DNA from: Octopus vulgaris
Lineage: Eukaryota
NCBI GenBank assembly: GCA_951406725.2
Contig: OX597820.1
Location: 11,470,001-11,534,000 of the forward strand
Length of the DNA stretch: 64,000 nucleotides
Direction: 5' to 3'
Below are positions 2,198-63,489 of this stretch, piece by piece. The position numbers and the translations under genes are program-made. Within the stretch, counting starts at the first letter, position 1, and each line of letters starts with the position of its first letter. Below the pieces are notes generated by a model. That model was not told where the DNA came from, made no database searches, and saw only the letters and a program-made list of their open reading frames with translations.

Positions 2198-2741
2198 GAG
2201 GACGATCTTTATCTTCTGGTTCTGTTAATTTGACTAGACTCTGTGTGTGTGTGTGTGTGAGTGTGAGTGGGCGTCAGTGTGAGTGTGAGTGTGAGTGTCT
2301 GTTTATCAGTTGTGCTACTCGTTTATGAAATGCAACGGATTGAATTTCAATTTTATGACATTTCGTCTTTTATTCCAATAACTCAAAGAAATAAAATGTT
2401 TGAAGACCGATCAACTCCAATTCACCCACGCACGCACGCAAAGCATATAGCTCGCACACGCACAATGCATACAGATATGAGAGCTTAACACGCTAGTGTG
2501 GTAGTGATGATGGTGGTGGTGGTGGCGGCGGCAGCGGCGGTGATGAGGTCTTTAACTTTTAAGCTGTGCTTTATGTTTTGTTTTTAACTAAGGGATGTCT
2601 TCCATTCATTTCTAAGTGTGGTCTTCCGTCTCCTTCGTAAAGACACGTCACATGGCTGAATCGGAAACATCCGTATGCCTATGTTGTTCAGCATGACGTC
2701 AGGTTTATCTTTAGCAAGTTAATAGAGTACCGTGTAGCACT

Positions 2742-2982
2742 AAGCATGGCTTAGTGGTTAGAGTGTTGGACTCATAATCGTAAGAATGCGATTTCGATTC
2801 CAGGACCGGATGGTGCGTTGTGTTCTTGAGCAAGGCACTTCATTTCACGTTGCTCCAGACCATTCAGCTTCTAAAATTGAGCTATCATGTGACGGACCAG
2901 CGTCCCATCCACTGGGGAACATACGCGCCACAGAACCTGGGAAACCGGCCCTATGAGTCAGTATGACTCGGAGAGGATCTTA
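2742..2982 (+). mobile_element. tRNA-derived SINE family C
   Basis: tggcttagtggttaga A box, ttcgattcc B box, gttcttgagcaaggcacttcatttcacgttgctcc central domain. Confidence 0.75.
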
Positions 2983-3418
2983 ATAGAATACCGATGTAGG
3001 TTTCTTATCAAAGGATTTATTCCAGTGATAGCTAAAGTTTGCATTGTCGATCATTAGAAACATTTAATATATTTTTTTGTTAAGCAATATGTGTTGCATT
3101 GTGTAGCAATATTTCATGAATACATGTGAGTGTGTATGCATCTGTACATACATACATACATTTATGTATTTGTATATACATATACATATATATAAATATC
3201 AAATATAAATTAAAAACAGAACACAAAGGATATCGCCGTACACGTGTTTCAAGCTTTATAAACAATCCGTCATTACGTAATAACGGATATATACTCTCTC
3301 ACCTCTTCCGCTTATCTGGCATATACAGGTGCTTACACTTATCAAGTATTCACTCTAAATTTACAGTACCTACTTGATATATATATATACATATATATTT
3401 AGAGAGAGAGAGAGAGAA

Positions 3419-3459
<41 letters not shown>

Positions 3460-3501
3460 TCGAGACAGAGACAGAAGCAGAGAGAGGCTTGAAGTTTTTA
3501 G

Positions 3502-3586
3502 TTCCTGGCACTCACCGGATTCGAGCAGTCTCGAGGAGAAGGAGTGCGAAACTGCAAGGACTTTCCGGACACCGACTGAAGAGGAA
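3502..3586 (+). ncRNA. Candidate non-circularly permuted hammerhead ribozyme, family X1 copy A
   Basis: GCACTC(3508-13)/GAGTGC(3542-47)-GAAA; GCAGT-C(3525-30)/ACTGC(3551-55); TCG/CGA-CTGAAGA(3576-82); CCGGA/TCCGG; TTCC/GGAA. Confidence 0.6.
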
Positions 3587-3709
3587 ATCAGCTGTGAATG
3601 ATCCGCGTATCTTGTTTTTGTCCTGTTTTGCCGTCTGTTATGTTATCGTCTGTTTTGCTGCATGCTCTGTTTTGTTGATTTCCGCTTGTTGTGTTCTTTC
3701 TGTCCGACC

Positions 3710-3745
<36 letters not shown>

Positions 3746-3804
3746 GTGTGTATGTGTGTGTATGTATATATGTATATATATATATGTGTGTGTATGTATG
3801 TATG

Positions 3805-3836
<32 letters not shown>

Positions 3837-3841
3837 TATAT

Positions 3842-3890
<49 letters not shown>

Positions 3891-3939
3891 CATACATACA
3901 CACACATACACACACACACGCACACACACACACATATAT

Positions 3940-4280
3940 GCTGCAAAGGCGGACAAGAGAGACCACAATTAGGACAGGCAAAAAAAAGACGGGTCATTCG
4001 TGGCTTTCTTTCCTCAGTCAAGTTCCAGAAGTCACGACCATTTCGGCAGTTACACTTGAGATGGGTCGATCTGGTGCCCCCCCCCCCTCCTTTTGAAGAA
4101 AAAGTCTAAGCTAAGAGCATTAGACCCTTTTGTAAGAAAGCTAGCGAATGTGTACGGTAACAAAGACAAAAAACAAACGAACAAAAAAACGGAGAACATG
4201 ATACACAATTACGAATACAAACAATAAGAAATAACAACAGGCGTCTTTCGATTGAAAACGATTCAAATTGAGCAGGCATG
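3940..4280 (-). mobile_element. Penelope-like repeat family X1 unit
   Basis: homologous over about 280 bp to 36857-37222 and to 21960-22172; abuts microsatellite. Confidence 0.6.
4004..4078 (-). ncRNA. Candidate non-circularly permuted hammerhead ribozyme, family X1 copy C
   Basis: minus strand: GGCA-c-CCAGA-tc-GACCCAT-C-TCAAGT-gtaac-TGCC-GAA-ATGGTC-gtgact-TCTGG-a-ACTTGA-CTGAGGA-aagaaag; intact core. Confidence 0.7.
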
Positions 4281-4647
4281 TATGAAATAAAAGCCTAAAG
4301 GCAAGAAGATAGGAGATGGACATAAGAGGTGTTGGCGGTCGGCAGTCAGACAAAGAAAGAAAGATCGTGGCTGGCCGGACACCGGTCATGTGGAAGGAGG
4401 AGAGATGGGTCGGGGACAGGGGGATTCAAGGATTGGACAAAATCAGAGACAAAGAGAAAGGTACAGGGGAGATAAAAGAGTGGGAAATAGTGGGAGTGAA
4501 AGAAAGCGAGGGCCAAGAAATGAGAGAGAGGGAGAGCGAGAAAAAGGAAGATAAAATGAGAGGGGGAATAAAAGATAGAGTAAGAGTCGTACAAAAAATT
4601 AGATACATACCTACTATAAGGTGAGCACAAGGGTGTACGTACGCCGC

Positions 4648-5152: not shown

Positions 5153-5306
5153 AACAAAAACGCAATAGAGGACAATAAAACATTCGGACAGATAGACGAT
5201 ACAAGGTGGACAAGCGAAACAGCAATTTGAAGGGCAGGCAAAAAAAAAAGATCATTCGTGGCTTTCTTCTCAGTTAAGTTCCATAATATAATATAACATA
5301 GTATAA

Positions 5307-21930: not shown

Positions 21931-22058
21931 CCAAAAGTTACGTACGCCGCTATATGTATACTGAAAAATGGAACAAGGACGTAACAGGCGACAACAAAAC
22001 ATCTGGACAGTTGGATGATCTAAAAAAAGACAGGAAAAAATAAGGACGGCATTCAGAG

Positions 22059-22147
22059 CTTTCTATCGTCAGTCGAGTTCCAGATCGTCGTTTCAATTTC
22101 GGTCGGTTACACTCGAGACTGCTCCAATCTGGCCGGCCCCAAGAAAA
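22059..22147 (-). ncRNA. Candidate non-circularly permuted hammerhead ribozyme, family X1 copy D
   Basis: minus: TTTTCTT-gg-GGCCGG-CCAGAT-tgga-GCAGT-C-TCGAGT-gtaa-CCGACC-GAA-ATTG-aaacgacg-ATCTGG-a-ACTCGA-CTGACGA-tAGAAAG. Confidence 0.7.
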
Positions 22148-22176
22148 TCTAAACTAAGAGCACTAGATTCTTTAGA

Positions 22177-22239
<63 letters not shown>

Positions 22240-35994: not shown

Positions 35995-36083
<89 letters not shown>

Positions 36084-36180
36084 ATCCAAACATGAAAACA
36101 CAAAGAGAAAACACAACAACGCGAGGACGTGGAACAAATATAGTATTATTGGACGCTCAGGAAAGAAGGAAAGAAGGAGA

Positions 36181-36215
36181 GTTTAACGTTTCGAGCGGAG
36201 CTCTTCGTCGGAAAC
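36181..36215 (-). ncRNA. Minimal hammerhead-like motif, family P3 (core CCGACGA)
   Basis: minus: GTTT-CCGACGA-A-GAGC tcc GCTC-GAAA-CG-TT-AAAC; element 36080-36275 between (TA)n tracts. Confidence 0.55.
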
Positions 36216-36305
36216 ATAGGACAAGGAAAGATCCAGAGAAGGGAAGACAGAGGAAAGAAAATCGCCAACGGTACATCTATATATCTATATATATATATAT
36301 ATATA

Positions 36306-36480
36306 ATACTCGAAATACGAAAGTAGAAAAGCAGCTAGCAACTGATGAAAGGTCGTTCTTTATGTTGTTTGTCTTGTTTACCATTTGTTTCTTTCGTTGT
36401 TCGAAAAAATAGTTCATATTCCATGTACTAGTACTTCGCATTTTTTGTTGTAGACGTTTTGTGACGTCCTGTGCCCACAT
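36306..36480 (+). mobile_element. Penelope-like family X2 fragment with 3' half of permuted hammerhead
   Basis: tactc-GAAA-tac...aagcag-c-tagcaa-CTGATGA; homologous to 63317-63470. Confidence 0.5.
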
Positions 36481-37020
36481 ATGTATGTATATATACGTAT
36501 AGATGTATACGTATGCATATATATATATATGTCGTTACGTTCCGAGTTCAAATTCCACCGAGGTCGACTTTGCCTTTTATCCTTTCGGGGTCGATAAATT
36601 AAGTACCAGTTATGCACTGGGCTCGATGTAATCGACTTAATCCGTTTGTCTGTCCTTGTTTGTCCCCTCTATGTTTAGCCCCTTGTGGGTAATAAAGAAA
36701 CATTATTTATAGTATTATATGATTGAACGCCTCGCATCCTCTTCCAAGCCAGATCTTTCTTTCTTGGTCTGGCCATCGTCCGTGCAACATCGATATTCCT
36801 CCCTGTACCTGTGAAATCTTGTATCCCTGCCGTGAAATCTTGTATCCACACACGCCAGCTTAACTTAATTCGTCCTTAGTCGAAAACATCTGTTGTTATG
36901 TCCTGTTATTATTATTTTTATTGTATTTGTGTAACATTCTCCGTTTCTTTTTTTTTTCCGTCCTTGTTTTCGTATACATTCGCTGCTTTCTTCCAAGGAA
37001 TCTAATGCACTTAGCTTACT

Positions 37021-37110
37021 TTTTCCTTGGGGCTGGGCAGATTGGAGCAATCTCGAGTATAATCAGCCGAAATTGCGAAGATAGTCTGGAACTCGACAGA
37101 GGAAAGAAAA
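37021..37110 (+). ncRNA. Candidate non-circularly permuted hammerhead, family X1 copy B (core U4A)
   Basis: GGCTGG-g-CAGATT-gga-GCAAT-C-TCGAGT-ataa-TCAGCC-GAA-ATTGC-gaagat-AGTCTG-ga-ACTCGA-CAGAGGA. Confidence 0.6.
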
Positions 37111-37218
37111 CTCCGAATGACCCGTCCTTGTTTTCTTTGTATCGCCTATCTGGATGTTTTCTTGTCCCTTTTTGTATCACCTAACTGTCTGGATGTTTTG
37201 CGTTCTTGTCCCATTTTG

Positions 37219-37312
<94 letters not shown>

Positions 37313-37331
37313 CATCGTACGTACACTTTGG

Positions 37332-62960: not shown

Positions 62961-63281
62961 GTATATATTATCTGTCTCTCCCCTCTTTCTCTTTTTCTCT
63001 CGTTGCTCACGCGTAACCATCGTCCATCTTTCTTTTCCTCACGTCGCCATCTTTCTTTCCTGCACGGACTTCTAAGGACTGAACGTCTCCTATCTCTCTC
63101 TTCTATCTTTTCTCTTTTCAAAGAAAATATTTCTCTCAGCGTTCACTAATTTTCCTCTCGTTCAGGTCTAACGTCCCTCCATGTTTGCTTCCGTTCGGTT
63201 TCCCTGTATGCCTCCACTGTCCTATTTTTGTTCCTAACTTTGAACCTCCATAAATCCAAAATATTATTTCGATATTTATGG

Positions 63282-63357
63282 GAGAAACTGTCTTCCAAGA
63301 TTCATATTGTCGTTGATTGCTCAAATGGGGAGTAGATAGACAGCCGACAACTGATGA
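63282..63357 (+). ncRNA. Candidate non-circularly permuted hammerhead, family X2 (G12 missing)
   Basis: GAGAAA-CTGTCT-tccaaga-TTCAT-A-TTGTCG-ttga-TTGCTC-AA-ATGGG-gagtagat-AGACAG-c-CGACAA-CTGATGA. Confidence 0.5.
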
Positions 63358-63489
63358 ACGGTCATTCTTTGTATTATTTCTCGTTTTTTCTCTCTCGTTA
63401 TTTGCGTATTTAACGCATTTGTTTTCGTATTCCATGTTGTTTACTGTTGGTGATGTCCTGTACCGATATATGCGCTAAGCAGTGTTTAC

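What the first reader, a model, noticed from the sequence alone, without database searches (positions are those of the whole stretch)
3500..4105. Scrambled (non-circularly permuted, pseudoknotted) hammerhead ribozyme in a dispersed repeat, with covariation in several helices
Seen: four diverged copies (3502-3586 +, 4004-4078 -, 22059-22147 -, 37021-37110 +) share the order e - a - d - b-U-C - c - short linker - a'-GAA-b' - d' - c'-CUGANGA - e'. Helices keep pairing while their sequence changes. a/a': GCACTC/GAGTGC, GGCA/TGCC, GGCCGG/CCGACC, GGCTGG/TCAGCC. b/b': GCAGT/ACTGC, CCAT/ATGG, CAGT/ATTG, GCAAT/ATTGC. c/c': TCG/CGA, TCAAGT/ACTTGA, TCGAGT/ACTCGA (twice). d/d': CCGGA/TCCGG versus (C)CAGA/TCTG(G). 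e/e': TTCC/GGAA versus TTTTC(TT)/(AA)GAAA. The conserved residues match the hammerhead core: NUC, C-GAAA and CUGANGA (CAGAGGA in one copy). Established: in types I-III the order is always a rotation of CUGANGA-II-GAAA-III-NUH-I. Inference: a = stem II, b = stem III, c = stem I, but NUH precedes GAAA, which precedes CUGANGA. The chain opens between A9 and G10.1 (closed by extra helix e), stem I links directly to stem II (plausible because their tips are adjacent in the 3D fold), and helix d braces the two long connectors. Non-circular hammerhead permutations have been reported before (my recollection), so whether this topology and host are new needs checking. These two copies face tail-to-tail across a microsatellite.
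Basis: partly seen in the sequence, partly recalled or inferred. Interest (0 to 1): 0.93.

Follow-up and report, generated by a model that had tools for sequence, protein, structure and literature searches.

The report
Split-core scrambled hammerhead ribozyme in retroelements
Thousands of small mobile repeats in this animal genome carry what looks like a self-cutting hammerhead RNA assembled in a strand order not found in the papers searched, and many copies of the youngest family begin right at the predicted cut.

Summary
The four copies and predicted cut sites are real. The order cut site–GAAA–CUGANGA is the type-SGC non-circular hammerhead of Eckert et al. 2023, which was reported only from metatranscriptomes. 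This motif differs: the stem II strand that should follow A9 lies at the 5' end, so the CUGANGA block, assumed unbreakable in that paper, is split at A9/G10.1. Correctly paired, e, g, stem II and the core meet in a four-way junction, gap-free in five of seven families. Seven families with different sequences keep the helices, with G10.1-C11.1 and A15.1-U16.1 invariant and position 17 never G. The motif sits in 710–850 bp non-coding, (TA)n-associated, Penelope-like repeats with thousands of copies. In young family D, 11 of 30 copies reaching the site begin 1–9 nt after it (0.6 expected), suggesting cleavage in vivo. Family A gave no such asymmetry, and three families keep a weak standard SGC pairing. 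Cleavage itself was not assayed. Verdict: new variant of a known kind.

The parts
36977..37119 (+). Family A ribozyme, most complete window copy: outer helix f 36977-82/37114-19; e 36987-92/37104-09; hairpin g 36993-37000/37023-30; a (stem II, G10.1 = 37031) 37031-36/37063-68; d about 37037-43/37083-89; b (stem III) 37047-51/37072-76; C17 = 37052; c (stem I) 37053-58/37091-96; GAAA 37069-72; core box 37097-37103 (U4A in this copy)
36740..37321 (+). 5'-truncated family A repeat that holds this ribozyme, ending in (AT)n and the first bases of a next unit (tail at 37312); 5' limit approximate
3935..4647 (-). Full-length family B unit (712 bp, longest ATG ORF 102 aa). Ribozyme 4150-3995: e 4141-34/4010-03; g inner arms 4125-20/4109-04; a 4078-75/4048-45; C17 = 4060; core box 4017-11. 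An insertion lies between g and a in this copy
3483..3691 (+). Family C copy, 5'-truncated inside hairpin g (true e strand absent): a 3508-13/3542-47; d 3515-19/3564-68; b 3525-29; C17 = 3530; GAAA 3548-51; core box 3576-82; e' 3583-87
3712..3935 (.). (TG)n/(TA)n microsatellite into which the 3' ends of the C and B copies both run; read as two independent insertions at one target tract (inference)
21941..22177 (-). Family A2 copy, 5'-truncated at about -60 (true e strand absent): a 22138-33/22106-01 (one mismatch); C17 = 22117; core box 22072-66; tail at 21950
5176..5286 (-). Family B 3' fragment that starts about 31 nt after the predicted cut
36305..36438 (+). Family F fragment that starts about 10 nt after the predicted cut, directly behind a (TA)n tract
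63203..63390 (+). Decayed copy of subfamily G (F-related, with compensatory changes in g, d, b and c; one base of GAAA lost)

Best explanation
The motif is a self-cleaving hammerhead in a new permutation: the C-S-G cyclic order of types SGC/CSG/GCS, opened at a fourth point, between A9 and G10.1. The 5' part supplies stem II's 10.x strand (a). Helix e staples A9 to the 5' module, and hairpin g links e to G10.1. The G12.A9 core, e, g and stem II thus form a four-way junction, probably with core on stem II and e on g (inferred). Helix d and the 2-8 nt linker tie the tips of stems I and II as in type SGC. It is the ribozyme of a non-autonomous, Penelope-like retrozyme. Tandem transcripts are cut to unit length, and the RNA (cut, re-joined or uncut) is copied into (TA)n tracts by a Penelope-type RT/GIY-YIG protein. 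Four or five helices hold the two cut products together, which could favour re-ligation into a circle (inferred). Shown here: sequence, covariation, repeat anatomy, and the pile-up of 5' ends in family D. Inferred: catalysis, junction geometry, circularisation and the helper element.
For: (1) Seven family majority sequences (30 loci each, 20 for F) keep a, d, b and c with different letters. Stem II shows 3 pair types at each of positions 2-5; G10.1-C11.1 and A15.1-U16.1 hold in 7 of 7; N7 varies; position 17 is C,C,C,C,C,U,A, never G. D and E were found beside Penelope elements by a CUGANGA scan, not by likeness to the window copies. (2) The e|g|a junction has no unpaired base in A, C, D, E and F; e and g are predicted by folding alone in A2, D, E and F (pair probability 0.89-0.99) and in window copies 2 and 4. 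(3) A, A2, B and C cannot form stem II with the strand after CUGANGA (0-1 bp), so a:a' is their only stem II. (4) Descriptor counts against shuffles and against 80 viral control loci. (5) 38 family D copies were chosen by their 3' part only. 11 of 30 that reach the site start at +1 to +9, against 0 of 19 at -9 to -1 (p = 0.003); 0.6 are expected from the upstream rate (P = 7e-11); 8 of 30 fall at the TA microhomology at +8 against 2 of 114 passes at other such sites (p = 5e-5). (6) Repeat anatomy: 712-847 bp units, no ORF over 102 aa, no tRNA gene, tandem dimers, inverted 5' pieces, tails, and (TA)5 or more within 260 nt downstream in 17-28 of 30 loci per family against 131 of 760 random stretches. 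An abundant RT + GIY-YIG element that also ends in (TA)n is in the genome. [quoted passage not shown]
Against: No cleavage assay and no raw RNA reads. In family A the same test shows no asymmetry: 4 of 31 start at +1 to +9 and 4 of 27 at -9 to -1 (p = 1.0). So the in vivo hint comes from D, one of three families (D, E, F) that can also form a weak standard SGC stem II (bulged A plus 4 bp with 2 G-U; -2 to -3 kcal/mol against -9 to -16 for a + e). Helix e is A-U rich and has rival U-tract partners in family A (pair probability 0.07) and is weak in C (0.04); A2 has a mismatch and B extra bases at the junction; the automatic e/g pick for B was spurious. Segments were chosen for pairing, so the 100% cognate figure is by construction. 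The families fall into two related groups, so about seven sequences are not seven independent tests, and R-scape was not run. Eckert et al. state that no known alignment has more than 1-2 nt inserted at this link. No autonomous element carrying this ribozyme was found; the abundant Penelope element has its own minimal type I hammerhead. 19 of 30 D copies pass the site.
Confidence: 0.7

Rival explanations
1. Switch or relic: the active fold is the ordinary type SGC (bulged A, then a 4-bp stem II from the strand after CUGANGA). The upstream e-g-a module is an inhibitory clamp that a protein or another RNA opens; the A, A2, B and C families are then inactive descendants.
For: D, E and F keep that pairing, with one pair changing G-C to U-G between D/E and F. 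The clear pile-up of 5' ends is in D and not in A. A Penelope hammerhead needed its protein to cleave in vitro (PMC11167929).
Against: The clamp is 6-14 kcal/mol more stable and is transcribed first. A, A2, B and C lack the pairing yet keep the core and covary in stems I, II, III and d. Incidental C- and A-type copies also start at +1 to +17.
Confidence: 0.12
2. A conserved but non-catalytic structure (protein-binding or packaging signal derived from a hammerhead). The 5' ends cluster because of RT stalling, TA microhomology, an internal transcription start or one truncated master copy.
For: In family A, truncations are spread over the whole motif, -26 to +17. Seven or eight of the 11 D ends sit at one TAT microhomology. 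Hammerhead mutants did not impair insertion by a Penelope element in vitro.
Against: Other microhomology sites draw 2 of 114. By +9 every 3' partner strand has already been copied, so no helix is left to stall RT there (inference). Position 17 never being G and N7 being free is the pattern expected of a catalytic hammerhead. The flanks of the +8 copies differ.
Confidence: 0.1
3. The helices form between two RNAs or two tandem units (a dimer), not within one unit, as for minimal Penelope hammerheads.
For: Metazoan Penelope hammerheads are proposed to work as dimers (PMC4209133), and tandem units exist.
Against: All partners lie within 120-135 nt with short linkers, and stem III is a full 5 bp, so one unit suffices on paper. 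A dimer would still have no A9-G10.1 bond.
Confidence: 0.08

Closest known systems
Type-SGC hammerhead (HRIMA-1; Eckert et al. 2023, PMC10085705; I read parts 1-5 of 8 of the main text, no figures or supplements)
   Same: Order cut site-GAAA-CUGANGA, short linker from stem I to stem II, an extra helix joining the other strands of stems I and II, same core residues, pseudoknotted core.
   Different: In SGC, CUGANGA runs straight into the stem II strand; the paper assumes this block cannot be interrupted and so counts six permutations. Here that strand is at the 5' end and two helices (e, g) fill the A9/G10.1 link. [quoted passage not shown]
Minimal and variant type I hammerheads of Penelope-like elements (Cervera & de la Pena 2014, PMC4209133; passages read)
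   Same: Penelope-like context, extra nucleotide after A9, invariant G10.1-C11.1, many divergent families in one genome.
   Different: Those are circular type I forms with weak stem III, proposed to act as dimers. This one has a full stem III, reversed block order and a helical insertion in place of one nucleotide.
Metazoan non-LTR retrozymes (Cervera & de la Pena 2020, PMC7229834; bioRxiv 10.64898/2026.07.22.740005; passages read)
   Same: Non-coding, low-GC tandem units with one ribozyme each, living beside autonomous Penelope elements.
   Different: Those are about 170-400 nt with type I hammerheads, often in long arrays. These are 710-850 bp, mostly single 5'-truncated copies in (TA)n. Circular RNA was not tested here.
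Pseudoknot (PK) hammerhead and pistol ribozyme (Zhan et al. 2024, PMC11300833; parts 1-2 of 6 read)
   Same: Stem II is formed by a long-range pairing in a multi-helix, pseudoknotted frame.
   Different: As I read the text, A9.G12 and G10.1-C11.1 form the stem of one loop there, with no break at A9/G10.1, and the block order is not reversed.

Membership tests
Hammerhead ribozyme | Core C3-U4-G5-A6-N7-G8-A9, G12-A13-A14, A15.1-U16.1, H17 | tested here: met
   7 of 7 family majority sequences; single copies often decayed (strict core in 5-29 of 30 loci per family)
Hammerhead ribozyme | Stems I, II and III flank the core, with covariation | tested here: met
   2-3 pair types at most positions; further compensatory changes in subfamily G; no R-scape statistic
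Hammerhead ribozyme | A9 joined to 10.1 directly or through 1-2 nt | tested here: not met
   The only stem II in A, A2, B and C, and the much stronger one in D, E and F, uses a strand at the 5' end
Hammerhead ribozyme | Site-specific self-cleavage after H17 | not testable with these tools
   Indirect only: pile-up of 5' ends at +1 to +9 in D, none in A
Type-SGC hammerhead | 5'-to-3' order S, G, C with a short stem I-II linker and a helix bracing stems I and II | tested here: met
   Linker 2-8 nt and helix d of 5-8 bp in 7 of 7 families; definition
Type-SGC hammerhead | Block C intact (stem I strand, CUGANGA, stem II strand in a row) | tested here: not met
   0-1 bp possible in A, A2, B, C; a weak 4-bp alternative in D, E, F
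Non-LTR retrozyme / non-autonomous Penelope-like element | Non-coding unit with one ribozyme, found as tandem repeats | tested here: met
   Units of 712-847 bp, longest ORF 61-102 aa; tandem pairs at about 740 and 846-851 bp spacing
Non-LTR retrozyme / non-autonomous Penelope-like element | Type I hammerhead | tested here: not met
   Block order is S-G-C
Non-LTR retrozyme / non-autonomous Penelope-like element | Expressed as linear and circular unit-length RNA | tested here: inconclusive
   No run on record as RNA was listed and only contigs were available
Non-LTR retrozyme / non-autonomous Penelope-like element | Penelope-type insertion marks (5' truncation, partial tandems, inverted 5' pieces, tail) and a helper element | tested here: inconclusive
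   Marks present; an RT + GIY-YIG element is abundant and one copy abuts a D copy, but no shared terminus was found

The most novel reading that the evidence does not exclude
A seventh natural hammerhead topology: the core block thought to be indivisible is cut at A9/G10.1 and rebuilt as a four-way junction, active as a monomer. It would be the first non-circularly permuted ribozyme from an animal genome, running a large, still young family of retrozymes whose truncated copies record the cleavage site. It may have arisen by duplication and loss from tandem SGC units, with the weak pairing in D/E/F as a relic.
Probability: 0.62. Interest if true: 0.9.

Novelty: new variant of a known kind. Interest (0 to 1): 0.82.

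Why it matters
It contradicts a stated design rule of hammerheads (three unbreakable blocks, six permutations) and moves non-circular permutations from environmental RNA of unknown origin into the germ line of an animal. It is invisible to Rfam and, by its block order, to type I-III descriptors. That raises the possibility that Penelope-like elements reported to lack hammerheads, such as Naiads, hide rearranged ones; I did not test this. The pile-up of 5' ends offers a genome-only readout of ribozyme cleavage in vivo, and so a handle on the open question of what hammerheads do in the Penelope life cycle. A new helical insertion point next to the active site, with ends clamped by four or five helices, could be useful for RNA switches and circularisation.

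Tried and rejected
Rfam scan of the window: the 150 of 423 matches shown were microsatellite-driven microRNA and snoRNA hits, with no hammerhead among them. HDV-like fold: considered from the ends of the copies and dropped by eye, because P2 and P3 do not pair across copies. tRNA-derived SINE: no tRNA gene in 4 loci. pLTR of the abundant Penelope element: its 3' end has a minimal type I hammerhead; 5 of 36 of its loci hold an A/B-type copy on the same strand, one of them the locus the query came from, which a shared (TA)n target could explain. Naiad link: not tested. Sequencing runs: no RNA holder listed; four contig sets (two guessed RNA, two under other organism labels) cover the family D ribozyme, but contigs show neither ends nor expression, so this is no evidence either way. 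Nested folding z-scores were -0.04 to -2.1 for 4 stretches, uninformative for a pseudoknotted core; two of the four stretches did not include the whole e strand. Copy number: 3 hits in 200 kb of evenly spaced sequence, about 40,000 if extrapolated, with a very wide interval; per-family candidate counts of 163-2377 are lower bounds and overlap. Earlier scan findings: none by sequence or words. Literature searches. 'Type-SGC' occurs only in PMC10085705, no paper held 'between A9 and G10.1', and passages of PMC3088659 list core insertions after A6, in GAAA and near C3 but none of this kind. Most subscription journals are not in the library, and the supplements of PMC10085705 (alignments S6-S8, search patterns), which I did not open, could hold a related form.

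Full report
Observation. The four copies are at the stated places and align. The window lies in a 2.8 Gb genome of 227 contigs. [quoted passage not shown] The size and microsatellite load resemble an octopus genome; this is recalled, not tested. Each copy has 163-1962 candidates in the genome (lower bounds) and defines a family: A (copy 4), B (copy 2), C (copy 1), A2 (copy 3).

Correction of the fold. The order is e, g, a, d, b-H17-c, linker, a'-GAA-b', d', c'-CUGANGA-e'. An invariant outer helix f closes it in A, A2, B and C. Folding alone recovers e and g in window copies 2 and 4.

Independent families. While checking Penelope loci I found the same architecture with unrelated letters: D and E (2007 and 2377 candidates), then F in evenly spaced sequence (2293 candidates), and a subfamily G with compensatory changes against F. 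Stem II reads, for example, GGCUGG/UCAGCC in A, GCACUC/GAGUGC in C, GAAGGA/UCCUUC in D and GAGCA/UGCUC in F. G10.1-C11.1 and A15.1-U16.1 hold in 7 of 7 families, N7 varies, and position 17 is C, U or A. The e|g|a junction has no unpaired base in A, C, D, E and F, one mismatch in A2, and extra bases in B (its automatic e/g choice for B was spurious, the true e is). Non-cognate strand swaps pair at 54-73% against 100% for cognate strands, the latter by construction. A descriptor gives 122 cores in 773 kb of loci against 2 in 2.32 Mb of shuffles, and 0 of 80 viral loci with both boxes in this order.

Topology. Eckert et al. (PMC10085705) define blocks S, G and C, assume each is unbroken, and derive six permutations. 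Type SGC has a short stem I-II linker and a bracing helix, cleaves in vitro, and was not found in genomes of known organisms. The present motif matches SGC in those features but has the stem II strand of block C at its 5' end. It is the same cyclic order, closed where SGC is open and opened at A9/G10.1. Taking G12.A9 as a helix end, the core, e, g and stem II make a four-way junction in which C11.1-G12 and e-to-g are continuous strands, so stem II can keep stacking on the core (inference). Penelope hammerheads carry an extra base at this link. In A, A2, B and C no other stem II is possible; in D, E and F a weak standard pairing remains, which is either a relic or a switch.

The element. Units are 712-847 bp, 39-42% U, without a long ORF or tRNA gene. 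Copies are 5'-truncated, end at an internal (AT)n with an optional tail, and occur as partial tandems and inversions. These are marks of Penelope insertions, and internal priming at RNA sites homologous to the cut DNA has been shown for one such element. Family D is young (best 40 hits 98-100% identical). The helper is inferred; the abundant autonomous element has its own minimal type I hammerhead.

Trace of cleavage. If cut RNA is sometimes the template, copies should begin just after position 17. I chose D copies by their 3' part only (38 of 40, dropping the query itself and one inverted mate; two pairs are tandem units). Their 5' junctions are at +1, +4, +5, +7, +8 (five), +9 (two), +17, +23 (two) and five at +52 to +73; 19 pass the site, the nearest ending at -30. 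That is 11 of 30 in nine bases against 0.6 expected, asymmetric about the site (p = 0.003) and above other TA microhomologies (p = 5e-5). Incidental copies of other families also cluster at +1 to +21 (some are divergent alignments). The same test in family A (38 of 39 aligned) gave ends from -26 to +17 with no asymmetry, 4 of 31 against 4 of 27. This neither supports nor excludes cleavage in A. Copies that pass the site need uncut, re-ligated or jumped templates.

Verdict. The fold is well supported (about 0.9), cleavage in vivo is likely at least in D (about 0.8), and the split fold is the likeliest active form (about 0.7). It works like a type-SGC hammerhead but fails that type's block C criterion, so I file it as a new variant. 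I found no report of it in eight literature searches, within the limits of the library. Papers seen: PMC10085705 (parts 1-5 of 8), PMC11300833 (parts 1-2 of 6), and passages of PMC4209133, PMC7229834, PMC3088659, PMC11167929, PMC6962438, PMC10886601, bioRxiv 10.1101/2021.04.23.441226 and 10.64898/2026.07.22.740005; no supplements. Hammerhead numbering and four-way junction stacking are partly from recall.

Noticed in passing
window 13003 (+), 24387 (-): Minimal type I hammerhead-like motifs of the kind found at the 3' end of the abundant Penelope element, with a variant core and an extra A after position 9.
   Followed up: partly
window 15539 and 15393 (-): Two type I hammerhead-like motifs 146 bp apart, possibly a small classical retrozyme or tandem pLTR.
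   Followed up: no
window about 36082-36280 (-): Penelope-like terminal fragment with a minimal hammerhead-like motif, head to head with the family F fragment (read by eye).
   Followed up: no
L157-L162 (e.g. G000:C16:2926500-2934500): Abundant RT + C-terminal GIY-YIG Penelope-like element, 13322 candidates, open frames up to 826 aa, ending in (TA)n; clade not determined.
   Followed up: partly
L124, about 2600-3020 (+): A Penelope 3' end runs into a 5'-truncated family D copy with no (TA)n between, which may be a template switch.
   Followed up: no
L100 (3111 +, 2850 -) and L109 (2600 +, 2183 -): Inverted pairs of type I hammerhead-like motifs of other families.
   Followed up: no
hairpin g apex, e.g. 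window 37001-37022: The apex of hairpin g is nearly invariant across A, A2, B and C while its stem varies, and is a different AU-rich loop in D, E and F; it may be a tertiary contact or protein site.
   Followed up: no
L194:2860 (-), L211:514 (+), L110:2707 (+), L015:876-1030 (+): Further subfamilies of the motif with their own helix sequences, not included in the seven-family count.
   Followed up: partly
L057:767-3 (-): 255-aa open frame that looks like a Tc1/mariner transposase (label recalled, not searched).
   Followed up: no
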